A stretch of 64,000 nucleotides of DNA from Naegleria gruberi. Its lineage: Eukaryota. Shown here piece by piece: positions 19,866 through 59,184 of this stretch. Each line of letters opens with the position of its first letter. Positions within the stretch are counted from its first letter, which is position 1. Position numbers and translations under genes: made by a program. Location: the NCBI GenBank assembly GCA_000004985.1, contig GG738846.1; one strand, 5' to 3'. The notes under the pieces were generated by a model. That model was not told the DNA's origin and ran no database searches. It saw only the letters and a list, made by a program, of their open reading frames with translations.

Positions 19866-21839
19866 ATGAAACCAACAACAGAAGCATCATCTTTTCGAAA
19901 CAATAGAAATCGTTCCTCAACTCTTCCTATGAGGTTGTCAAAGAATATGGCTATTGAAAATATCAATCAGTCAATAAAACAATCATTTAGAAATTCAAAA
20001 ACCACAGTTGACCTAAATGAAAGTCAAGGAAGTATGATTATAAAAGATAGAATTTCTTTCTCTAGAAGTAGGCGTTCAAGCACAGCATCAGGTTCAAAAC
20101 AGCCAACATCACTCTACAAGAGACTCTTATCCAACCTCAAACATGGTGATGATTCCATGTCAGACATTATAAGTGAAACATCATATGACACTTCCATGTC
20201 GGGTTTAGTAACGTCATCTATGGGAATAGGTTTCAGATTAAATGGAGCCAACAACACTCCCACACACAAACAAGAAATATCCGAATTGAATAATTTAGTT
20301 TCTCAATTCATGTGTTGTGGCTTTCCAATTGTGGTTTTTGACAAGAAGGGTTGTATTGTCTATATGAATAGAGAATCAGAGGAAATGTTTGGAACATTTA
20401 GTTTTTCAGTATTGGGTGAAGATTTAGTTGAGGTTTTTATGGAGGACACAATTCTCGATATTCACACGTTAATTGATGATTTTTTAGGATTTTCAATGGA
20501 AGATATTGAAGGAGTTGACAGGAAGAATATCAGTCTCAAGAATATGCCTTATGAATTATTGAGCGAGGAAGATAAATCAAAGAGAAGAAGTCACCTTTCA
20601 AAAGAGAGAATTTTGAAAGGAAAATCAATAACTTTGAATCAATTCTTTACCATCTCAACAAAACTTGTTCCAATTAAGAAGAAACATGAAATTCACTTTT
20701 GTGCCTATATGAAATTTGTTGAATTTATTGATAATGAAGAGTTGAACACAATATATGAGAATTTAGATTCCGTTCATGTACAAATTACAAATGCAAGTAT
20801 TGTTCCAATTGTGGCGATTAATGATAAGGGAAGTGTTTTGGTATTCAATAAGGCTGCCACACTGACATTTGGATATGAAAATAGTGAAATAATTGGAAGA
20901 AATGTCAAAATTATTTGTAATAGAAAAGATAGAATGAATCATGACATGTATTTGGAGAGATTTGCCAAAACTGAAAAGAAGAAAATTCTAGATCGTATTA
21001 AGAAAGTCAAAGGTCAAACAAAAGATGGTAAAAGTATTCCAGTGGAAATCAAAATTTCTCAAATTGTCAAAAATGGTCAATCATTATTTGTTGCCTATTT
21101 CAGAGATTACAAATTATTATCCAATCAAGATGAACAAATGACAGGTATTGCAGAAAAGATTTATCCAAGAAATATTGCAGAAAGATTAAGTATGGGCCAG
21201 AAAATCATTGACCAAGTTGATGGATGTTCCATGTTATATTGTGATTTGGTTGGTTTTACAGAGTTATCATCAACCATGCCACCTAAACAAGTTGTTTCTC
21301 TACTACACTCAATATTTTCAAATTTTGATGAAATTTGTCAAAAGTTCAAGATGGAAAAGATTAAAACAATAGGAGATAGTTACTTTTTAGCTTCTGGTTT
21401 AAGGAATGAAACTAGTTCAGTTGACCATATGATTAAGGGTGGTCTTTTAATGATTACAACAGTGAATCAATTTTCAGAATCGACAGGAAATAGTTTACAA
21501 GTTAGAGTTGGAATTCACACCTCAATAGGAGGTGATGTCATTGCAGCTGTAGTTGGTAAAGTGAAGAGAACGTACGATCTCTTTGGGTCTGATGTTAAAA
21601 TTGCTCAACTAATGGAAATGACTGGAATTACTAATGAATTACACATCTCCAACAATACCTACAAATCCATCAAGAGTGAAAAGAGAAAATCACTCTTTAT
21701 TGAAAAATTCAAAGAGGGAGATGAAATTTTAATGGACAAGTATGCAGAACCATTGCAGATACCGACAAATAGTTGGGTAACACACAATGTGTTAGAATTA
21801 CTCAATAGAGATAAGGAAAAGTCAATTCAACAACAATAA
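19866..21839 (+). CDS. PAS-PAS-class III nucleotidyl cyclase homology domain protein (657 aa), single exon
   Basis: Two PAS folds (CCGFPIVVFDKKGCIVYMNRESEEMFG..; IVPIVAINDKGSVLVFNKAATLTFGYENSEIIGRNVKII..). C-terminal CHD with LYCDLVGFT, KIKTIGDSYF and GGDVIAAVVGKVKRTYDLFGSDVKIAQLMEMTG. ATG verified at 19866. Confidence 0.75.
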   Translation: MKPTTEASSFRNNRNRSSTLPMRLSKNMAIENINQSIKQSFRNSKTTVDLNESQGSMIIKDRISFSRSRRSSTASGSKQPTSLYKRLLSNLKHGDDSMSDIISETSYDTSMSGLVTSSMGIGFRLNGANNTPTHKQEISELNNLVSQFMCCGFPIVVFDKKGCIVYMNRESEEMFGTFSFSVLGEDLVEVFMEDTILDIHTLIDDFLGFSMEDIEGVDRKNISLKNMPYELLSEEDKSKRRSHLSKERILKGKSITLNQFFTISTKLVPIKKKHEIHFCAYMKFVEFIDNEELNTIYENLDSVHVQITNASIVPIVAINDKGSVLVFNKAATLTFGYENSEIIGRNVKIICNRKDRMNHDMYLERFAKTEKKKILDRIKKVKGQTKDGKSIPVEIKISQIVKNGQSLFVAYFRDYKLLSNQDEQMTGIAEKIYPRNIAERLSMGQKIIDQVDGCSMLYCDLVGFTELSSTMPPKQVVSLLHSIFSNFDEICQKFKMEKIKTIGDSYFLASGLRNETSSVDHMIKGGLLMITTVNQFSESTGNSLQVRVGIHTSIGGDVIAAVVGKVKRTYDLFGSDVKIAQLMEMTGITNELHISNNTYKSIKSEKRKSLFIEKFKEGDEILMDKYAEPLQIPTNSWVTHNVLELLNRDKEKSIQQQ

Positions 21840-22203: not shown

Positions 22204-23064
22204 ATGGAACAAATCTACGCCAATACCAAAGACTCTCTATTTTGTATTAAACGTTTTCAAGAATTACTAAAAACAAGTTATATAGGACGATCGATCGTGT
22301 ATCGGAATCAAGTGGAAACAACAATGGACATTGGAAGGAGAGAGGCTGAGGAGGGTTGTTTGACTGGAACACTCATCTTGGCAGAGGAACAAACAAAAGG
22401 AAGAGGAAGGAGAGGTAGAGAATGGAGCAGTGCAGGGAAGGGAAAGAATTTGTATTTTACTATTGTATTTCATGTTAGATTGGATAATGCACAGGAATTG
22501 ATAAAACTTAATTTGGCAATTCCTTTGGCAATTACTATTACTTTGAGAGATGAAGGATTGGAAAATTGTGGAATTAAATGGCCAAATGATGTTTGGGTCA
22601 TTCCAAACGAAAAGGATTCACTTCCATCTAAAATTAGTGGAATGTTAATTGATAGTGTACAATCTGGAGAAACTTTATTTGCATTGGCAGGAATTGGAAT
22701 TAATCTCAATAGTTCATTCAAGAGTACATCACTTACCCAAGGTGAAAATGCTCTTCCAAATGTTGCTATTTCATTCCTTGATGCTACCAATAAGAGTGTA
22801 GATAGAGAAAAATTTCTTGCTCAATTGTGTAATACTTTGGAAAACTTATTGGCATTTTCACAAAAGGATGTAATTACTCTGTACAAATCACATGATATTC
22901 TTATTGGAAAGGATATTACCATATCACCATCAGATAAATCACCATCATATACTGCCAAAGCTGTTGGTATTTCCAAGTTTGGTAACTTGATGGTTGAAAT
23001 GAAAGATGGAACAGGTGTCAAGGAAATGATTGCTGAAGAAGTTTCCATTCGACCATTAGAATAA
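22204..23064 (+). CDS. Biotin-protein ligase (BirA-type catalytic domain, class I size)
   Basis: Motif TKGRGRRGREWSS..GKGKNLYFT matches the BirA GRGRxGRxW signature. A possible alternative 5' exon lies at 21898-22038 (see findings). Confidence 0.7.
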   Translation: MEQIYANTKDSLFCIKRFQELLKTSYIGRSIVYRNQVETTMDIGRREAEEGCLTGTLILAEEQTKGRGRRGREWSSAGKGKNLYFTIVFHVRLDNAQELIKLNLAIPLAITITLRDEGLENCGIKWPNDVWVIPNEKDSLPSKISGMLIDSVQSGETLFALAGIGINLNSSFKSTSLTQGENALPNVAISFLDATNKSVDREKFLAQLCNTLENLLAFSQKDVITLYKSHDILIGKDITISPSDKSPSYTAKAVGISKFGNLMVEMKDGTGVKEMIAEEVSIRPLE

Positions 23065-25081: not shown

Positions 25082-26281
25082 TTAATCAAAATAATTATTT
25101 AGTAGATTAACACCTGACGGATTGTCATTCATTTCGTCCAGCATATCAGTTGCAATACTACTCTGGTGCTGCTGGTTGGTACTTATCGTACTTGCCGTTG
25201 TAAAAGTTGCTGTAGAGGAATCCAGAGAATAATTCATTAAAGGTAGAGTGGCATTTGAGGCCACTTTGGAGAGGAGAGAAATAAAATCCTTCTTTTCTGC
25301 TTCTGGAATTTTTGACAATATCTTGTCAACATCCTGCTCACTAGCAATACTAGTCAACAAATCACGCAAATAGAGTGAAACACTTGTAAATTTGTTGGAA
25401 GTGATAAGATCCTTAACAGTTTCTCGAAGTAATGCTTCTTCAACTGGTTCTCCCACAGATTCTTCCTCATCATCGAAATTGGAATCACTGGCTTGCCTTT
25501 CCAGTTTTGCCTTTTTTCTTTCTTCCTCATAATAACTGGGATCTCTTCTCTTTTTTTCATTGTCCATCATTTTGTCAAAAACATGTGTTCCATTAAGTAT
25601 GTGTACAGTTGCCATCTTTTCACTTGTACTTGAAATATTTGTTTCCAAAATAATCAATCCAAGTGTGAAGGTCGTAATTAAGGAGGCAATCTTGACCTTT
25701 TTGTAAATGTCAAATTTGATAATATTTCTACTCTTTTTTCCTTTCATATTCTCAGTGGTGTAAATGTGAAGTTTAAATGGATCATGCAATTCAAAAATGT
25801 AAGCAAAAATCGATTGATGTGGCTCATCAACTCCATAATACAATTTAGATTGTAATTCCTCTGTAATTTTGTAACGAATAGTTTTTCTATGTTTCAATAT
25901 CTTGGTATCAAATGATTCCTGATCAACATCAGTCTCCATAGCAAACTTTGAATTCTTTGCATTTTCAATAATATTTTCCTCTCTCAATTTACCAGTCTCT
26001 ACAATTTCATTCTTTAGCCTTTCTCTCACAAGCTGATAAATCTTTTCAATATTAGCACTTGATGCATTGATCGGTTCAGGAAATGTATAACAATTAAAAA
26101 TCATATTAAAACCACATTCAACCTTCTTATTCCTAACAATCTTTTCCGAAGAGTTTGATGAAGACTTTTTCTTTCTTGATGACGACTCGGATGAACCAGA
26201 AACAGCAGCCATGGTAACAGAAGTAATACTATTGTTATTACTAGAGGCATTTGTTGCCAATAATTCTTCCGAACTTATCAT
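25082..26281 (-). CDS. Hypothetical protein (~400 aa)
   Basis: Long minus ORF. The track start at 26311 is TTG; the first ATG is near 26281 (MISSEELL). No recognisable domain. Confidence 0.45.
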   Translation of the reverse strand: MISSEELLATNASSNNNSITSVTMAAVSGSSESSSRKKKSSSNSSEKIVRNKKVECGFNMIFNCYTFPEPINASSANIEKIYQLVRERLKNEIVETGKLREENIIENAKNSKFAMETDVDQESFDTKILKHRKTIRYKITEELQSKLYYGVDEPHQSIFAYIFELHDPFKLHIYTTENMKGKKSRNIIKFDIYKKVKIASLITTFTLGLIILETNISSTSEKMATVHILNGTHVFDKMMDNEKKRRDPSYYEEERKKAKLERQASDSNFDDEEESVGEPVEEALLRETVKDLITSNKFTSVSLYLRDLLTSIASEQDVDKILSKIPEAEKKDFISLLSKVASNATLPLMNYSLDSSTATFTTASTISTNQQHQSSIATDMLDEMNDNPSGVNLLNNYFD

Positions 26282-26560
26282 TTTGTTGTTGTTGATGTGG
26301 TGTATTATCAATTATTTAATTTGATGAAGCTGATGAAATATTTTTCTTGTGTGGACAATATTTTTTGTTTGGTTTGCACTTGACGCGTTGTATTTTTTTT
26401 TGTAATGTGTTCAAATATCTAATAAAACACGTGATGCACTCTGCTGTTGAATCCATTTTTATCTGGAAATAACTTCAACTGATTTGGATCAACTGAAGAT
26501 GCAAAAAAAGACGAGTTTACTGGAACTACAAATCGATTCCATTTATTCTCAAAGAAAAAA

Positions 26561-27160
26561 ATGGCTCTCCAAGAACATCAAAATGAAACTAACGAAAAAT
26601 TGTTAAGGCAAGAAGAATGTTTAACCTCAAACTCTGATAGAAAAACTTGTCTTCTTGGAAAGAGAAAACAAGAAGAAGCCACGAATGGTACAACTTTTTC
26701 ATCTGAATCACAAGATATAGAGTTTGAAAGTGTTGCTGTTGATGAAGATGTGAAATTAGAAAATGTACAATTAAAACAATCACTTTTGTTACTCGTATTA
26801 GGAGCAGAACAGAGAGAGGAATGGCCTGAAAAGTGGCAAAATTTGGTATGGAAAGTTGTTAATCAGAATATTCTACAAGATTGTTCAAACTCTACAACCA
26901 ACGATTCACTGTTCAATGAGGAATTTACGAGAGAATTGGAGAGTTATTTCCCAATGGACACAAGTACAAACTCTTCCAATACTAATTGTGCTAAGGAGTG
27001 GGTTAGAAATAGAATTAAACCATGCCTTGCTTTCAATTCTCTCCTTGAACCAATCTCTAAAAAGATCAAAATTGCAACAACAAATGAAACTCCCACAACT
27101 ACAAATCCAGACCTAGTAGAAGACGACAATACTGCTGAAGAGGCTTCTCCAATTTTCTAA
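26561..27160 (+). CDS. Hypothetical acidic protein (199 aa)
   Basis: ATG verified at 26561 in A-rich context. E/D-rich. Confidence 0.45.
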   Translation: MALQEHQNETNEKLLRQEECLTSNSDRKTCLLGKRKQEEATNGTTFSSESQDIEFESVAVDEDVKLENVQLKQSLLLLVLGAEQREEWPEKWQNLVWKVVNQNILQDCSNSTTNDSLFNEEFTRELESYFPMDTSTNSSNTNCAKEWVRNRIKPCLAFNSLLEPISKKIKIATTNETPTTTNPDLVEDDNTAEEASPIF

Positions 27161-27225
27161 TTTTAATATCTGTAAATAAAATGCAAGTTGACTTGAACAA
27201 TTTAAAAAAGCAGGTGTTAAAAGAT

Positions 27226-27967
27226 TTATTGAGAAGCTCTTAACTTGTTCAAAGCATCAGTAAACTTATTGCTGTGTGACTTTTCAGCCTTAGCAAGAGT
27301 TTCGAACCATTCAGAAATATCATCGAAACCTTCTTGTCTGGCAGTCTTAGCCATAGATGGATACATGGAAGTATATTCGTGAGTTTCACCAGCAATAGCA
27401 GAAATCAAGTTTGATTCAGTATCACCCATTGGTTCACCAGTGGCTGGGTCACCAGCTTCTTCCAAGAATTCTATTATTATTATTAGTACAAATTAAATAA
27501 TTATTTTAATTGTTATTATTAGAATATAATAATATAAAGTAAAATAATTTAATGTAAATTCTAGTGTAAAGATAATAATATTACTATTAACTACATACCC
27601 AAATGTCCAAAAGCGTGAGCAGTTTCACCATCAGCAGTAGATCTGAACAATTGGGAAATATCAGTGTGACCTTCAACATCAGCTCTATTTTAATACATTA
27701 TTAAACAATAATTATCATCACACAAGAACAAGAATATAATTAAAATCATCATCATCAGTACAATTGTCGTCATCCAAAAAAAACCTACCTATCGGCGAAG
27801 AAGAGATATCTTCTGTTAGCTTGGGATTCACCAGCAAAAGCTTCCTTCAAGTTATTGTGAGTCTTGGTACCCTTCAATTCACTGTACATTCTTGTGGAAG
27901 AAGCATTGGAAATGACGGTAGGCTTGAGGTTAGTGCTCTTTGATACTTTGGTGATGGATCTGAACAT
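27226..27967 (-). CDS. Rubrerythrin-like diiron four-helix-bundle protein (erythrin domain only, no rubredoxin domain) with a mitochondrial-presequence-like N-terminus. 3 exons: about 27785-27967, 27598-27685, 27226-27462.
   Basis: Helix 1 [19 protein letters not shown]. Helix 2 [23 protein letters not shown]. Helices 3-4 [46 protein letters not shown]. These give the E..E-Q..RY / E..H diiron ligand pattern. Introns gtaggttt... and gtatgtag...aatag are in frame. N-terminus [29 protein letters not shown]. Confidence 0.65.
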
Positions 27968-28153
27968 TTTTTTAAGTGACTGGTTTATTTTTAACGACCT
28001 AATTAATTCCGACCACCTATGGCGGAGTAAAGAAAGAATCACCTGTACAGGAGGTTGGTTCAATTCAATTCTTAATAACTGAATAGATATTTAGGATAAT
28101 GGGTGTTTGTTAAGTTAGAAATGGTGATGAAGTGCAAAAGAGTTTTATTGTAA

Positions 28154-28226
28154 GGGGATGTAGCTCACATGGTAGAGCGCTTCTTTAGCATGGAAGAGGT
28201 ACGGGGATCGATACCCCGCATCTCCA
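28154..28226 (+). tRNA. tRNA-Ala (anticodon AGC)
   Basis: GGGGATGTAGCTCA...; G3:U70 Ala identity pair. Anticodon stem CTTCT/GGAAG, loop TTAGCAT (U33-AGC-A37). T-arm GGGGATCGATACCCC. 73 nt. Confidence 0.85.
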
Positions 28227-28328
28227 CACATTTTGCCTTTTGCTAGTTTTCTTATTAAGGCTAATAGAATATTATGACATGGATTAAAAGAAAGATGAAT
28301 AAACCTTCATTCTCTACTTGTTATTCAT

Positions 28329-29306
28329 TTAAAATTGAGCATCAACAAAATTTCTATGATATAGACTACTAAACCTATATTTTCTATTTTCAGTATAGAA
28401 TAATCTTTGATAATCTTGTGGTGTTAAAATATCCTTTTTTGATTTCAATCGTTCTTGATATTCCTCATTGACTTTTCTACTGTCCATGGTTGATATGGAG
28501 TTTTGATGGCGAATATTATTTTGAATTCTTTCGTTCAGACTCATTCTATTTTCAGTGTTGGCATTTACAATATAATTCTGAGTGAAGTATCTGTGTTCAT
28601 GATCAAAGTTTGAGGCAATTTTCAAATCATACAATAGGTCATTAGAAACTCTATTGGATTTTATCAAATCTGATATACTATCATACTTGATGGAATGTAA
28701 TTGCAAATAAAGATACCATAAATATTCCAAATCCACTGGTTTTCCCTTTCTAATCGAGAATATATGTAAATCAAGAGGATGTACCAATAAATCCTTATCA
28801 TTATTATTAACATTCAAATCAGTTGTCAAATCATCCCAATATTTCAAATATTCTTCATTGAAAAACATTCTCATATTTGATTCCTCTTGTGTCAAGTCAT
28901 ATTCTGTAGCATATGGATAAGGAGCTTCAAATCTATATATAAAACAAGTTTCCTTCTTGTGATACAATCTACTTTTAAATATATTTGTCATGTTAATTGC
29001 CGGAATATTGGTCCAATATTGTACTGTTTCATCAAATGAAGAGGAAGGTAAAAAGGAAAACCCAATAAATCCAATAGTTGAGACTGCAGAGATGAGCAAG
29101 GCTCTTGTTGTAAATTTCCTCTGATAAATAAATTTTGAGAGAAAATTCAACTTGACCTCCGTTTCAGGTTTTTGAAAGAAGGAATAAAATTGTGAAAATT
29201 TTGATAATTTAAATTTTGAATTATTTGCTCGTGATGATGATTGGTAATTTATCGGATTTGGAAGAATTTTCCTATCTGCTGATGATGTTTCTGGATCTTG
29301 TTTCAT
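28329..29306 (-). CDS. Hypothetical protein (~325 aa) with one predicted TM segment
   Basis: Likely start MKQDPETSS (ATG ~29304-29306, AAAAATG context). The track ORF extends 5' in an open frame to 29426, overlapping the stop of the upstream gene. Confidence 0.45.
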   Translation of the reverse strand: MKQDPETSSADRKILPNPINYQSSSRANNSKFKLSKFSQFYSFFQKPETEVKLNFLSKFIYQRKFTTRALLISAVSTIGFIGFSFLPSSSFDETVQYWTNIPAINMTNIFKSRLYHKKETCFIYRFEAPYPYATEYDLTQEESNMRMFFNEEYLKYWDDLTTDLNVNNNDKDLLVHPLDLHIFSIRKGKPVDLEYLWYLYLQLHSIKYDSISDLIKSNRVSNDLLYDLKIASNFDHEHRYFTQNYIVNANTENRMSLNERIQNNIRHQNSISTMDSRKVNEEYQERLKSKKDILTPQDYQRLFYTENRKYRFSSLYHRNFVDAQF

Positions 29307-29397
29307 TTTTTTAATATAAATATTTAAATAATATCGATCTTGGAGTTTTAAAATAATATTAATCATATATTTATGAATAATTTTCAATTTAATTTCA

Positions 29398-32112
29398 TTA
29401 TGTTTTCTCATGATAACTCCACACATAATTCCACTTCTTCAAATTGGCCACTCTGTTTCCCAGTTTCATCATTCTTTTGTTGAACTTTCCAATGCGGCTT
29501 GTTCGTTCTTTTTTGGTTTCCTTCTCTGGAGTTCTGAATGACATCTTTACCATGTTGTGCTCTAATTCTATGTGGCGTTTAATTGGAGAAGATTGATCAT
29601 TAATGAACTCTTCTATTCTTCTAGTTGTGAGATTACCTTTAATTTCCTCAATTTTGGTTGGTTCTTGTTGTTGTCTTTGTTTAATCCATTTTACTATTTG
29701 ATTATCTAAAAATTGGTGAGGATCAAGAACCATTTCTCTCAAGTTTGAATATCCACATCTCACAATGGATGGAATGGTATTTGGTTTTACTGATGGATAC
29801 CAAATATGGATCTTGATGGTTGGGATTGTTTTCAATTGGTTCACTAAATTCTTAATTTCTTGATTACTTGTTGATTCATTCTTGTAGCTTTGAAAATATT
29901 TATCAATGTCTAATTGAGCCAATGACTTTTTCATTTCTTCTTGACCTACACATGTATCACTATATTTGATAGAGAATTCTACCATAACTATTGTGGAATA
30001 ATTGTTAAATTCTTGAAAGCTCAAAAAATCTTGATGAGCTGAATTTGGAAGTCTTATCAATCTGTTCAGGTAGAGTTTTTGCTCCTCTGTTATGATCATC
30101 TTGTTATCATTAACATTGGTACAAACTTCAACACATTTCCATAGATAGGAAAGCATGTCCTCGTCTACATTCTTAATCAAGCCAAATCGATTCAAAGATA
30201 GAGGCTTAAATTTAAGATCATGAGATTCTAATATGATTTGATCCATCTCTCCTGAATTTAACAACTTGAGTGCTTTCAAAGAATTTACACTTGTCAACCG
30301 CTTGTTGAACATTAAGTTCAAAACAACTAACCATTCAAATATACCACCAAAACTTGGCCCTCCAAATAATGTTGGATATCTGGTTATTCTTTTTTGTATT
30401 TCAGAGAAAAATAATGAACTATCTCTACAAAATTCAAAGAGGGTGTCGATTAATACTTGTTCATCTAAAAGACTAACTAAATAAGTACCATCTTCATTAC
30501 GCTCAATCTCACACATTCCAACTGGTATCCAACTTGGATCTATAGTACATATCTTGTTCTCTCCTTCTCCTCTTAATTGAATTGATAGGTGCCTAATAAT
30601 TAAATCACTCACTCCATCCCAAAATATCTGACTATAGATTGAAAGCTTTTGACGTAGGAATTGAGTTAGGTCATTACGAAAAGTATCTAATGTTACCAGA
30701 GCTGCTGATTTAACATTTTTACAACTAAATAAATTCTTAATGAAAGTAAAGAATATTCTTTTTCTACCCAGAAATTGATGAATTAAGTGAATGTCAGTAA
30801 GTTCTGAAATAACCTTCTTTGATTGATTGATCATGAATTTTAAAAGTGATTCAATATTGCCTCGATTAATGGAATCAAACTTGCTTGGCATCATTCTAAT
30901 ATTCACTCTCTTTCCCAATAATGACAAATATTGATCTACATAACGCTGATCAAAACTGGTGCCTGCTATGCCAACATATATCGGTTGAAGTTTAGTGACC
31001 TCTCTGACAATGAAATGTTGTAAATTTCTAAATTGATTACATTCATAATCAAAAATATCCAAAAGAGATTTGTTAGAAGTATTCAAAATCTCATCTAAAC
31101 CAAAACCAACATCTTTTCCATACTCATCCTTAATACTACCAATTAACATTCGGTTATAGTTTATGAAATAGGCCAAATCAGTTTCCCAAGGACTAAGCTC
31201 ACTCAAAATTTCAGCATAAATATAGCTGATACATTTCAAGTACCCATTTAATTGGTATTCTAGAAATTCGGTCGATGTCAAATACTTGTTGACCTTCAAG
31301 AGGGACCTTAAGTAAAGCAACCGTGCCAGTATAAATACTTGAATTTCATTGAACACAACAACATTTTTTGCTACATCTGTTCTCAAGCTTCTAATTCTCT
31401 TAGCTAAAAGGTTGTAACAAGGATCTATTATTTGGGTTAAATCAGGAGAACTAAAGTCAGAAAATAAATTAGATTCAGGAGCCAAAATCATGTAAATCAA
31501 AAAGTAGTCCTGGTGTACACTTCTTGACAACATTTTGAAGGTTTTTCCCTTCCCAGAAACACCCAAAAGCATCTCAACATTGACACTTTTGTCAAAGAGA
31601 GTCTCTTTTTTAATGTTGTTCAATAAATCGGGAGTTGTTAAATGTTTATACATGCCAAATAATTCAGGACGAATCGAACCTTGATAAATAGGCAAGCCAC
31701 ATTTTGAATTGTAATATCTACCCATTAATTTCTGTTGTTGGGCAGAATCCAAATAGGTTGGCTTTGTGATAGTGGAAACAACATTATCAGCAATTCTTTG
31801 CAATGTTGCTACAGAAACAAACCGATGGTTACGCTTAACTTTTTCTATAGCGTCCTTATAGAGGCTTGAGAAATCGGGTGAGTTTAATTGTCTTTCTTCT
31901 ACAAATTCAATTGTATTGTTGTAGATAAGTACACTCTCGGGAACACCTTTCTGGTTGAGGCTAGAATGATCCTTAATGAAGTCTTCATGAGGAGCAGAAA
32001 TTGGCATCGGCATTTTTTGCTGTTCTCTAGCCTTATCTTGAGTGCTACTAACACCTGCTTCACCTTGAGGTGTTGAACTAATGTCTCCCAATTTTTGATG
32101 GGAAGAGTTCAT
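29398..32112 (-). CDS. Orphan 904-aa protein with a Walker-A P-loop (putative NTPase), single exon
   Basis: ATG verified at 32110-32112. GVSGKGKT Walker A near residue 185. Possible Walker-B-like VVVFNE. No other recognisable family signature. Confidence 0.5.
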   Translation of the reverse strand: MNSSHQKLGDISSTPQGEAGVSSTQDKAREQQKMPMPISAPHEDFIKDHSSLNQKGVPESVLIYNNTIEFVEERQLNSPDFSSLYKDAIEKVKRNHRFVSVATLQRIADNVVSTITKPTYLDSAQQQKLMGRYYNSKCGLPIYQGSIRPELFGMYKHLTTPDLLNNIKKETLFDKSVNVEMLLGVSGKGKTFKMLSRSVHQDYFLIYMILAPESNLFSDFSSPDLTQIIDPCYNLLAKRIRSLRTDVAKNVVVFNEIQVFILARLLYLRSLLKVNKYLTSTEFLEYQLNGYLKCISYIYAEILSELSPWETDLAYFINYNRMLIGSIKDEYGKDVGFGLDEILNTSNKSLLDIFDYECNQFRNLQHFIVREVTKLQPIYVGIAGTSFDQRYVDQYLSLLGKRVNIRMMPSKFDSINRGNIESLLKFMINQSKKVISELTDIHLIHQFLGRKRIFFTFIKNLFSCKNVKSAALVTLDTFRNDLTQFLRQKLSIYSQIFWDGVSDLIIRHLSIQLRGEGENKICTIDPSWIPVGMCEIERNEDGTYLVSLLDEQVLIDTLFEFCRDSSLFFSEIQKRITRYPTLFGGPSFGGIFEWLVVLNLMFNKRLTSVNSLKALKLLNSGEMDQIILESHDLKFKPLSLNRFGLIKNVDEDMLSYLWKCVEVCTNVNDNKMIITEEQKLYLNRLIRLPNSAHQDFLSFQEFNNYSTIVMVEFSIKYSDTCVGQEEMKKSLAQLDIDKYFQSYKNESTSNQEIKNLVNQLKTIPTIKIHIWYPSVKPNTIPSIVRCGYSNLREMVLDPHQFLDNQIVKWIKQRQQQEPTKIEEIKGNLTTRRIEEFINDQSSPIKRHIELEHNMVKMSFRTPEKETKKERTSRIGKFNKRMMKLGNRVANLKKWNYVWSYHEKT

Positions 32113-58928: not shown

Positions 58929-59111
58929 TTTTTTAAATTTATTAATTATTAATAAAAAAAATTGCCAATGACAATTATTGCATTGTGATATGAAATTCTT
59001 CATAATAAAATGTGTGGAGATGCGGGGGTAAAAGGGGGAATGAAGAAGGAATATAAGAATAGGGTGCTATTAAAACTGAAGCAAAGAAGACTTGCAAAGT
59101 AAAAAACTTAG

Positions 59112-59184
59112 TGGAGATGCGGGGTATCGATCCCCGTACCTCTTCCATGCTAAAGAAGCGCTCTACCATGTGAGCTACATCCCC
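59112..59184 (-). tRNA. tRNA-Ala (AGC), identical to the copy at 28154-28226, opposite strand
   Basis: Reverse complement is a 73/73 match to the plus-strand tRNA-Ala. Confidence 0.85.

What the first reader, a model, noticed from the sequence alone, without database searches (positions are those of the whole stretch)
27226..27967. Intron-containing rubrerythrin-like diiron protein with a mitochondrial-type presequence
Seen in sequence: all three helix signatures of the rubrerythrin/erythrin diiron domain are present (E..E-Q..RY, E..H, E..E..H). The three exons are separated by two AT-rich GTAGGT/GTATGT...AG introns, so this is a native nuclear gene, not bacterial contamination. The N-terminus is basic, hydroxylated and free of acidic residues ([29 protein letters not shown]), as expected for a mitochondrial presequence. 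There is no C-terminal rubredoxin Cys4 domain. Established knowledge: rubrerythrins act as peroxidases mainly in anaerobes and microaerophiles, and in eukaryotes are mostly reported from anaerobic protists, often via lateral transfer. A mitochondrially targeted version in a putatively aerobic amoeba would be notable, but I cannot confirm novelty without a search.
Basis: partly seen in the sequence, partly recalled or inferred. Interest (0 to 1): 0.55.

Follow-up and report, generated by a model that had tools for sequence, protein, structure and literature searches.

The report
Known Naegleria mitochondrial aerobic-type rubrerythrin

Summary
On the minus strand, three exons (27967-27789, 27684-27599, 27470-27226) are split by two AT-rich GT..AG introns. 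They encode a 169-aa protein with a 28-residue basic, acid-free N-terminal extension and a one-domain rubrerythrin fold. All seven di-iron site residues are present, and there is no cysteine and no rubredoxin domain.

The product is 100% identical to Naegleria gruberi EFC50160.1 / XP_002682904.1. That accession is listed by Gray et al. 2020 (BMC Biol 18:22, Table S3C) as the N. gruberi "aerobic-type rubrerythrin" with predicted mitochondrial targeting. [quoted passage not shown] It also appears in the experimental N. gruberi mitochondrial proteome of Horváthová et al. 2021.

My own checks agree:
- The intron positions are conserved in N. fowleri.
- The presequence and its R-x-Y|S motif are conserved in Naegleria and Willaertia.
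- The nearest prokaryotic relatives are Rhodospirillales (70-76% identity).
- The bacterial genes sit in Rbr-RFO-DUF3501 operons.

Peroxidase activity is the most likely function, by analogy with ferriperoxin, but it has not been tested in any eukaryote.

Verdict: a real gene, correctly read, already known, and of low interest as a discovery.

The parts
27789..27967 (-). Exon 1 (codons 1-59 plus two bases of codon 60). Encodes the presequence and helix A with ligand E47.
   Evidence: The spliced product equals EFC50160.1.
27884..27967 (-). Coding region for the 28-residue mitochondrial presequence [28 protein letters not shown], ending in an R26-M27-Y28|S29 (R-3 type) cleavage motif.
   Evidence: Composition: 5 K/R, 0 D/E, 10 S/T, pI 11.2. 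The bacterial homologues start exactly after it, and the R-x-Y-S motif is conserved in N. fowleri, N. lovaniensis and Willaertia. Published predictors call it mitochondrial, and the protein is in the mitochondrial proteome. The cleavage site itself is inferred, not shown.
27685..27788 (-). Intron 1: 104 nt, GTAGGT...TAG, phase 2, inside the Arg60 codon.
   Evidence: N. fowleri has an intron at the same position and phase.
27599..27684 (-). Exon 2. Encodes helix B with ligands E80 and H83.
27471..27598 (-). Intron 2: 128 nt, GTATGT...TAG, 12% GC, phase 1, inside the Glu89 codon. A TACTAAT branch-point-like motif lies near the 3' end.
   Evidence: N. fowleri has an intron at the same position and phase.
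27226..27470 (-). Exon 3. Encodes helices C and D with ligands E117, E120, E151 and H154. Includes the TAA stop at 27228-27226.

Best explanation
This is the single-copy nuclear gene of Naegleria gruberi for the mitochondrial 'aerobic-type' (sulerythrin / ferriperoxin-like, one-domain) rubrerythrin, NAEGRDRAFT_77926 (EFC50160.1).

The 169-aa precursor is made in the cytosol and imported into the mitochondrion by a 28-residue presequence. The presequence is probably removed at the R-x-Y|S motif, leaving a roughly 15.6-kDa acidic four-helix-bundle protein. By homology this protein forms a domain-swapped dimer.

Each bundle holds a two-metal (di-iron) site ligated by E47, E80, H83, E117, E151 and H154, with E120 poised above it.

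The most likely activity is reduction of H2O2 and organic hydroperoxides to water or alcohol inside an aerobic mitochondrion. With no rubredoxin domain, electrons must come from a separate partner. The best candidates are the two co-inherited nuclear-encoded proteins, the CCG-domain Fe-S oxidoreductase RFO and DUF3501, or a ferredoxin/FNR-type reductase.

Shown: gene structure, family membership, ligand conservation, expression, and enrichment in the mitochondrial fraction. Inferred: cleavage site, dimer, metal identity, peroxidase activity and electron donor.
For: Identity: 100% match to EFC50160.1 / XP_002682904.1. The same accession is listed as the N. gruberi aerobic-type rubrerythrin in Table S3C of Gray et al. 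2020, with DUF3501 = EFC41941.1 and RFO = EFC47468.1.

Family:
- PF02915, E=2.8e-27.
- 213 bits (about 71% identity in the A1 alignment) to B. pseudomallei Rbr and 184 bits to sulerythrin, against 108 bits to classical D. vulgaris Rbr.

Ligands: all seven positions are invariant in alignment A1. With an offset of +27 they map onto the BpRbr site residues E20/E53/H56/E90/E93/E124/H127, which were defined by crystallography and by the E53A/E124A mutant.

Localisation:
- Presequence composition and its conservation.
- Published scores: TargetP 0.657, MitoProt 0.957, Predotar 0.63.
- The protein is in Sheet 1 (mitochondrial cluster) of the N. gruberi organelle proteome, with 11 unique peptides and 39% coverage. 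LFQ rises 26.3 -> 28.4 -> 30.2 towards the mitochondria-rich fraction. DUF3501 (XP_002674685.1) behaves the same way.

Native gene: two intron positions are shared with N. fowleri. The protein was also detected in whole-cell proteomes.

Origin and module:
- The closest prokaryotes are Rhodospirillales and other Alphaproteobacteria.
- 62 of 80 bacterial loci carry both RFO (CCG domain, PF02754) and DUF3501 (PF12007) within 4 kb of the Rbr gene.

Activity: ferriperoxin, a member of the same lineage, is an FNR-dependent H2O2 / organic hydroperoxide peroxidase that is essential for aerobic growth. Homologues from two Hydrogenobacter genomes, the genus of ferriperoxin's source organism, are 67-69% identical to the Naegleria protein.
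Against: No enzymatic assay, metal analysis or genetic test exists for any eukaryotic member. Gray et al. state that the function of the system still needs work.

B. pseudomallei Rbr binds several metals promiscuously, so the metal used in vivo is not settled.

The proteomic assignment rests on co-fractionation, not imaging, and that fraction co-purifies with peroxisomes.

I could not confirm RFO in the stored part of the proteome table, which is truncated. The N. gruberi RFO is known to me only by citation.

TargetP gave only reliability class 4.
Confidence: 0.85

Rival explanations
1. The gene reached Heterolobosea by a comparatively recent lateral transfer from an alphaproteobacterium, then gained a presequence and introns. 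It is not an inheritance from the original mitochondrial endosymbiont.
For: Identity to Rhodospirillales proteins is very high, 73-76%. Distribution across eukaryotes is patchy. My NJ tree does not resolve the position of the eukaryotic clade among bacteria, with support of only 18-49%. Willaertia has no introns and N. fowleri has three, so introns are young and dynamic.
Against: Orthologues with a homologous presequence occur in Naegleria spp. and Willaertia. Gray et al. also list Pharyngomonas and Heterolobosea sp. BB2, and more than 15 other eukaryotic lineages, usually together with RFO and DUF3501.

The seven sequences that carry a presequence cluster together with 72% bootstrap. Four are heterolobosean; the other three (P0017, P0127, P0128) I judged eukaryotic from their N-terminal extensions.

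The published RFO tree groups the eukaryotic with the alphaproteobacterial sequences with maximal support, and the authors report an alphaproteobacterial origin for DUF3501 too.

The whole family is highly conserved; even archaeal sulerythrin scores 184 bits. High identity is therefore not a sign of recency.
Confidence: 0.08
2. The protein is mitochondrial but is not primarily a peroxidase. It might act as a small iron or other metal buffer (ferroxidase), an O2 or redox sensor, or the catalytic subunit of a different oxidoreductase formed with RFO and DUF3501.
For: BpRbr binds Fe, Mn and Co promiscuously in a pre-formed site. Naegleria lacks a well-defined ferritin system and re-allocates iron under limitation. 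The N. fowleri orthologue changes about 1.5-fold (p=0.03) in the iron-limitation proteome, with no transcript change. The obligate co-occurrence with a CCG-domain HdrD/GlpC-like protein is unusual for a simple scavenger. The function is stated to be unknown.
Against: The only biochemically and genetically tested member of the lineage is a peroxidase required for aerobic growth. The full peroxidase-type ligand set, including the E120 equivalent above the site, is conserved. A dimer of four-helix bundles has no ferritin-like storage cavity (inference from the structures cited).
Confidence: 0.2
3. The gene is bacterial contamination, or an unexpressed pseudogene that merely resembles a eukaryotic gene.
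For: The mature domain is 70-76% identical to bacterial proteins.
Against: Two spliceosomal introns interrupt the frame, and both are shared with N. fowleri. The gene sits among typical eukaryotic genes on a 1.0-Mb scaffold. An LplA/LipB-family neighbour is shared with N. fowleri. Peptides covering 33-39% of the protein were detected in two independent proteomes.
Confidence: 0.01

Closest known systems
Eukaryotic mitochondrial aerobic-type rubrerythrin system (Rbr + DUF3501 + RFO), described from Andalucia godoyi and many protists (Gray et al. 2020, BMC Biol 18:22)
   Same: This gene is itself a listed member (EFC50160.1). It is a one-domain Rbr with a predicted mitochondrial presequence. Its partners DUF3501 and RFO are encoded elsewhere in the nuclear genome, and its nearest relatives are alphaproteobacterial.
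   Different: Nothing substantive. New details added here are the two introns shared with N. fowleri, the intronless Willaertia gene, and the conserved R-x-Y|S motif.
Burkholderia pseudomallei rubrerythrin (PDB 4DI0, 8FUH, 9ONM...)
   Same: About 71% identity over the whole mature domain. The metal ligands are identical and there is no rubredoxin domain. The bacterial gene is part of an operon containing a DUF gene.
   Different: It is bacterial, cytoplasmic and has no presequence. The Naegleria protein has HAFGH where Bp has HAHGH, and LFFA where Bp has LYFA. The domain-swapped dimer is only assumed for Naegleria.
Sulerythrin of Sulfolobus tokodaii (PDB 1J30)
   Same: It belongs to the same aerobic-type lineage, scores 184 bits, has the same ligands, and also has the HAFGH motif.
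   Different: It is archaeal and has a two-residue insertion in the inter-helix loop (GGLTDPAT against AGDPAT). It has no organellar targeting.
Ferriperoxin of Hydrogenobacter thermophilus (Sato et al. 2012)
   Same: It belongs to the same lineage. Homologues from other Hydrogenobacter genomes are 67-69% identical to the Naegleria protein. Ferriperoxin provides the only direct evidence that such proteins are peroxidases needed in air.
   Different: The electron donor shown in vitro is FNR plus NADPH. Whether the mitochondrial protein uses RFO/DUF3501 or a ferredoxin reductase is unknown.
Classical rubrerythrin of anaerobes (D. vulgaris 1RYT) and of anaerobic protists (Entamoeba mitosome, Trichomonas)
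   Same: It has a ferritin-like four-helix bundle with an E/E-x-x-H/E-x-x-E/E-x-x-H di-iron site and uses peroxidase chemistry.
   Different: Classical forms carry a C-terminal Cys4 rubredoxin domain, and the eukaryotic copies are attributed to LGT into anaerobes. Here the score is only 108 bits, and the NCBIfam RuberyRbr score of 130.8 is below its cutoff of 200.

Membership tests
Rubrerythrin / ferritin-like di-iron superfamily (Pfam PF02915) | Profile match above the curated threshold. | tested here: met
   96.2 bits against a cutoff of 22.8, E=2.8e-27, covering residues 38-160.
Rubrerythrin / ferritin-like di-iron superfamily (Pfam PF02915) | Complete set of metal ligands on four helices: E; E-x-x-H; E-x-x-E; E-x-x-H. 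| tested here: met
   E47, E80, H83, E117, E120, E151 and H154 are invariant in alignment A1. They align to BpRbr E20/E53/H56/E90/E93/E124/H127.
Aerobic-type (group 4; sulerythrin/ferriperoxin) rubrerythrin lineage of Cardenas et al. 2016 | No rubredoxin-like Cys4 domain. | tested here: met
   The protein has zero cysteines. Its stop codon lies 65 bp from the neighbouring ORF.
Aerobic-type (group 4; sulerythrin/ferriperoxin) rubrerythrin lineage of Cardenas et al. 2016 | Closest to sulerythrin and BpRbr rather than to classical, nigerythrin or symerythrin groups. | tested here: met
   213 bits to BpRbr and 184 to sulerythrin, against 108 to D. vulgaris Rbr, 58 to nigerythrin and 49 to symerythrin.
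Aerobic-type (group 4; sulerythrin/ferriperoxin) rubrerythrin lineage of Cardenas et al. 2016 | Co-occurrence with DUF3501 in the same genome. | tested here: met
   The N. gruberi DUF3501 protein XP_002674685.1 (sequence taken) matches the DUF3501 genes of 59 of 80 bacterial Rbr loci at E<1e-5. It is not linked: there is no hit in the window.
Aerobic-type (group 4; sulerythrin/ferriperoxin) rubrerythrin lineage of Cardenas et al. 2016 | Co-occurrence with the CCG-domain Fe-S oxidoreductase RFO. | not tested
   Known only by citation: EFC47468.1 in Gray et al. Table S3C. I could not retrieve its sequence. It is absent from the window and was not found in the truncated stored proteome table.
Aerobic-type (group 4; sulerythrin/ferriperoxin) rubrerythrin lineage of Cardenas et al. 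2016 | Domain-swapped dimer and hydroperoxide reductase activity. | not testable with these tools
   Shown only for homologues: BpRbr and ferriperoxin.
Classical two-domain rubrerythrin (NCBIfam NF045767 RuberyRbr equivalog) | Equivalog score cutoff, and a C-terminal rubredoxin domain. | tested here: not met
   130.8 bits against a cutoff of 200. The match covers profile positions 2-146 of 194 only.
Nuclear-encoded mitochondrial matrix protein with a cleavable presequence | N-terminal extension relative to bacterial homologues that is basic, hydroxylated and acid-free, with an R-2/R-3 cleavage motif. | tested here: met
   28 residues with 5 K/R, 0 D/E and 10 S/T. RMY|S, RMY|S and RKY|S are conserved immediately before the start of bacterial homology.
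Nuclear-encoded mitochondrial matrix protein with a cleavable presequence | Experimental presence in mitochondria. | not testable with these tools
   Published co-fractionation proteomics places it in the mitochondrial cluster. No imaging or import assay is known to me.

The most novel reading that the evidence does not exclude
The Rbr-RFO-DUF3501 trio, retained patchily across diverse protist lineages, many of them with gene-rich, bacteria-like mitochondria, is not a generic H2O2 scavenger. Instead it is a dedicated three-component oxidoreductase with a different substrate or electron route. One example would be a thiol/disulfide- or quinone-linked oxidase/peroxidase built on an HdrD-like CCG protein. 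Its loss in most eukaryotes would then mark a specific change in mitochondrial redox physiology. Nothing in my evidence excludes this, because no eukaryotic member has been assayed.
Probability: 0.2. Interest if true: 0.55.

Novelty: already known. Interest (0 to 1): 0.15.

Why it matters
As a discovery it does not matter. The gene, its family, its predicted and proteomically supported mitochondrial location, and its evolutionary interpretation are all in print.

[quoted passage not shown] Naegleria gruberi can be grown in culture, and the protein is readily detected in its proteomes, so it is a reasonable organism in which to test this biochemically.

Tried and rejected
1. Bacterial contamination or pseudogene. 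Rejected because of the introns shared with N. fowleri, the eukaryotic gene neighbourhood and the detected peptides.

2. The highest-scoring database hits, P0002-P0013 and P0016 (207-228 aa), looked as if they might be longer heterolobosean relatives. Inspection shows they are internally duplicated or chimeric bacterial rubrerythrins on roughly 1-kb metagenome contigs. I discarded them.

3. Many 150-200-aa hits with apparent N-terminal extensions have an internal Met directly before the LKG start. These are over-called bacterial ORFs. Only P0017, P0127 and P0128 look like true eukaryotic presequence-bearing proteins.

4. I searched the 64-kb window for the partner genes DUF3501 and RFO by tblastn and found none.

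5. I searched for RFO in the stored N. gruberi mitochondrial proteome table and did not find it, but the table is truncated (344 rows missing), so this is uninformative.

6. Pfam on the immediate neighbours (26561-27160 +, 28329-29426 -, 29398-32112 -, 25082-26311 -) gave no hits and no functional link.

7. The first bootstrap NJ run with Biopython timed out. I re-ran it with a numpy distance routine. The tree is too short (135 columns) to place the eukaryotic clade among bacteria. The bacterial sample was seeded from the query, so it is biased towards close relatives.

8. I did not run structure prediction. Solved structures at about 71% identity make it redundant.

Full report
**1. What is in the sequence**

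The feature is a minus-strand gene. Reading the reverse complement of 27150-28100 and splicing exon 1 (27967-27789), exon 2 (27684-27599) and exon 3 (27470-27226) gives a 510-nt frame. It encodes a 169-aa protein ending in TAA.

- Intron 1 is 104 nt (GTAGGT...TAG, 24% GC).
- Intron 2 is 128 nt (GTATGT...TAG, 12% GC).
- The exons are 41% GC.
- Unspliced, the frame breaks at both junctions.

The window as a whole is about 32% GC. It carries ordinary eukaryotic genes: thiolase, a PAS-adenylate cyclase, a P-type ATPase, RagA, a UBC enzyme and a fucosyltransferase.

**2. Identity**

The spliced product is 100% identical, end to end, to 'predicted protein [Naegleria gruberi]'. Its accessions are EFC50160.1 / XP_002682904.1 / NAEGRDRAFT_77926 / UniProt D2UZJ0, on a 1.0-Mb scaffold. 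This also validates the intron model. Orthologues are:

- N. fowleri, 82% identity, 171 aa.
- N. lovaniensis, 171 aa, in the same 90%-identity cluster as the N. fowleri protein.
- Willaertia magna, 76% identity, 168 aa.

**3. Family**

- Pfam Rubrerythrin PF02915: 96 bits, E=2.8e-27.
- The NCBIfam equivalog for classical rubrerythrin is missed (130.8 against a cutoff of 200). Only the di-iron domain aligns.
- Among solved structures the best matches are one-domain proteins: Burkholderia pseudomallei Rbr (213 bits; about 71% identity in alignment A1) and Sulfolobus sulerythrin (184 bits). Classical D. vulgaris rubrerythrin scores 108 bits.

The seven site residues E47, E80, H83, E117, E120, E151 and H154 are invariant in an alignment of heterolobosean, alphaproteobacterial and Burkholderia sequences. 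With a +27 offset they correspond to E20/E53/H56/E90/E93/E124/H127 of BpRbr. Those residues were defined by crystal structures and by the metal-free E53A/E124A mutant (the mutant chain is visible).

The protein has no cysteine. Only 65 bp follow before the neighbouring convergent ORF, so there is no rubredoxin domain. This places it in the 'aerobic-type' lineage of Cardenas et al. 2016.

**4. Presequence and localisation**

Bacterial homologues begin at the position of residue 29-30. The extra 28 residues have 5 K/R, no D/E and 10 S/T, with pI 11.2, while the mature part has pI 4.9.

The extension ends in R-M-Y|S. N. fowleri and N. lovaniensis have R-M-Y|S and Willaertia has R-K-Y|S. From general knowledge of MPP/Icp55 processing this is the classical R-3 motif. 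The cleavage itself is inferred.

Published predictors give TargetP 0.657 (class 4), MitoProt 0.957 and Predotar 0.63.

Experimentally, XP_002682904.1 is in Sheet 1 (the mitochondrial cluster) of Supplementary Data 2 of Horváthová et al. 2021. It has 11 unique peptides and 39.1% coverage. Its LFQ intensity rises 26.25 -> 28.38 -> 30.17 towards the densest, mitochondria-richest fraction. The DUF3501 partner XP_002674685.1 is in the same sheet. The Sheet 2 (peroxisome) header appears only after these rows.

**5. The gene is native and old within Heterolobosea**

In N. fowleri (locus L001) the gene has three introns. The first two sit at exactly the same codon and phase as in N. gruberi. The third interrupts after ...EYTSM. 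The Willaertia gene (L002) is intronless.

The LplA/LipB-family gene that lies directly downstream of the rubrerythrin gene in N. fowleri has its orthologue at 22204-23064 in the window, about 4 kb away and in a changed orientation.

**6. Relatives and operon context**

A scan of one genome per prokaryotic species returned 80 loci at 65-76% identity. The top of the list is dominated by Rhodospirillales and other Alphaproteobacteria: Magnetospirillaceae, Rhodospirillaceae, Telmatospirillum, Ferrovibrio and Phaeospirillum.

In two loci examined by Pfam, the gene order is Rbr, then a 447-aa CCG-domain protein (PF02754, the RFO), then DUF3501 (PF12007). By tblastn, 62 of 80 loci have both partners within 4 kb. 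The N. gruberi window has neither.

A bootstrapped NJ tree (89 sequences, 135 columns, 100 replicates) gave these results:

- The four heteroloboseans group with 98% support.
- All seven presequence-bearing sequences group with 72% support. These include P0017, P0127 and EukProt EC722613.1.
- This clade sits within the mostly alphaproteobacterial cluster, but with only 18-49% support.

The protein is too short to resolve more, as Gray et al. also note. My bacterial sample was seeded from the query, so it is biased towards close relatives.

**7. What is already published**

Gray et al. [quoted passage not shown] They reported the following:

- Mitochondrial targeting is predicted broadly across these lineages.
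- RFO and DUF3501 are shown to be of alphaproteobacterial origin.

Their Table S3C lists N. gruberi EFC50160.1 explicitly. Later papers cite the 'aerobic-type rubrerythrin system' as a textbook example of a patchily retained ancestral mitochondrial trait. The Naegleria pangenome paper counts one rubrerythrin gene.

The N. fowleri orthologue appears in three datasets:

- Pathogenicity proteomics, annotated as 'Rubrerythrin-1'.
- An iron-limitation proteome, with a fold change of -1.53 and p=0.028. I did not verify which condition the sign refers to.
- The matching transcriptome, with no significant change.

The N. gruberi protein is detected, and unchanged, in a copper-stress proteome.

**8. 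Mechanism**

The best-supported reading is a mitochondrial hydroperoxide reductase. The only member of the lineage tested biochemically and genetically is ferriperoxin of Hydrogenobacter thermophilus. It reduces H2O2 and organic hydroperoxides with NADPH plus FNR and is indispensable for growth in air. Homologues from two other Hydrogenobacter genomes are 67-69% identical to the Naegleria protein.

With no fused rubredoxin, the electron donor must be a separate protein. The near-obligate co-occurrence with the HdrD/GlpC-like RFO and with DUF3501 makes these two the prime candidates.

All of this is inference for the eukaryotic protein, and Gray et al. say so themselves. Promiscuous metal binding by BpRbr leaves room for a metal-handling or other redox role.

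**9. Verdict**

The suggestion that this might be a notable, possibly laterally acquired, novelty is not supported. The gene is a catalogued member of a known family of eukaryotic mitochondrial proteins that the literature treats as vertically inherited. Novelty: already known. Interest is low; what remains open is the untested biochemical function of the three-component system.

Noticed in passing
window 28154-28227 (+) and 59111-59184 (-): There are two tRNA-Ala(AGC) genes with identical 74-nt sequences and unrelated flanks. The first lies 187 bp upstream of the rubrerythrin ATG, in divergent orientation.
   Followed up: partly
window 22204-23064 (+); L001 5319-6200: A BPL_LplA_LipB-family (lipoate/biotin ligase-like) gene lies immediately downstream of the rubrerythrin gene in N. 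fowleri. In N. gruberi its orthologue lies about 4 kb away with changed relative orientation. A thiolase gene and two ORFs without Pfam matches sit in between. This is local synteny with rearrangement.
   Followed up: partly
L001 4001-4937 (N. fowleri); L002 4001-4507 (Willaertia magna): Intron content of the orthologues differs: N. gruberi has 2, N. fowleri has 3 (an extra one after ...EYTSM), and Willaertia has 0. This indicates intron gain or loss within Heterolobosea.
   Followed up: yes
P0015 (nr 'unnamed protein product [Naegleria fowleri]', 164 aa): This alternative N. fowleri gene model lacks the seven residues RADVEGH at the exon 1 / exon 2 junction. It is probably a mis-spliced annotation of intron 1.
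   Followed up: no
database proteins P0002-P0010, P0012, P0013, P0016, P0122-P0124: These 207-228-aa 'rubrerythrins' on roughly 1-kb metagenome contigs contain an internal tandem duplication of about half the domain, joined in frame. They outscore true orthologues in HMMER because of the repeat. They look like assembly chimeras of closely related strains, although real duplications were not excluded.
   Followed up: partly
database proteins P0017, P0127 (JGI metagenome contigs) and P0128 (EukProt EC722613.1): These are further aerobic-type rubrerythrins with genuine basic N-terminal extensions and no internal start Met. They are probably from uncultured or other protists, and they cluster with the heterolobosean proteins (72% bootstrap).
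   Followed up: partly
window 19866-21839 (+): This ORF encodes a PAS-domain sensor fused to an adenylate/guanylate cyclase catalytic domain. This gene type appears to be expanded in Naegleria, and there is no link to the finding.
   Followed up: no
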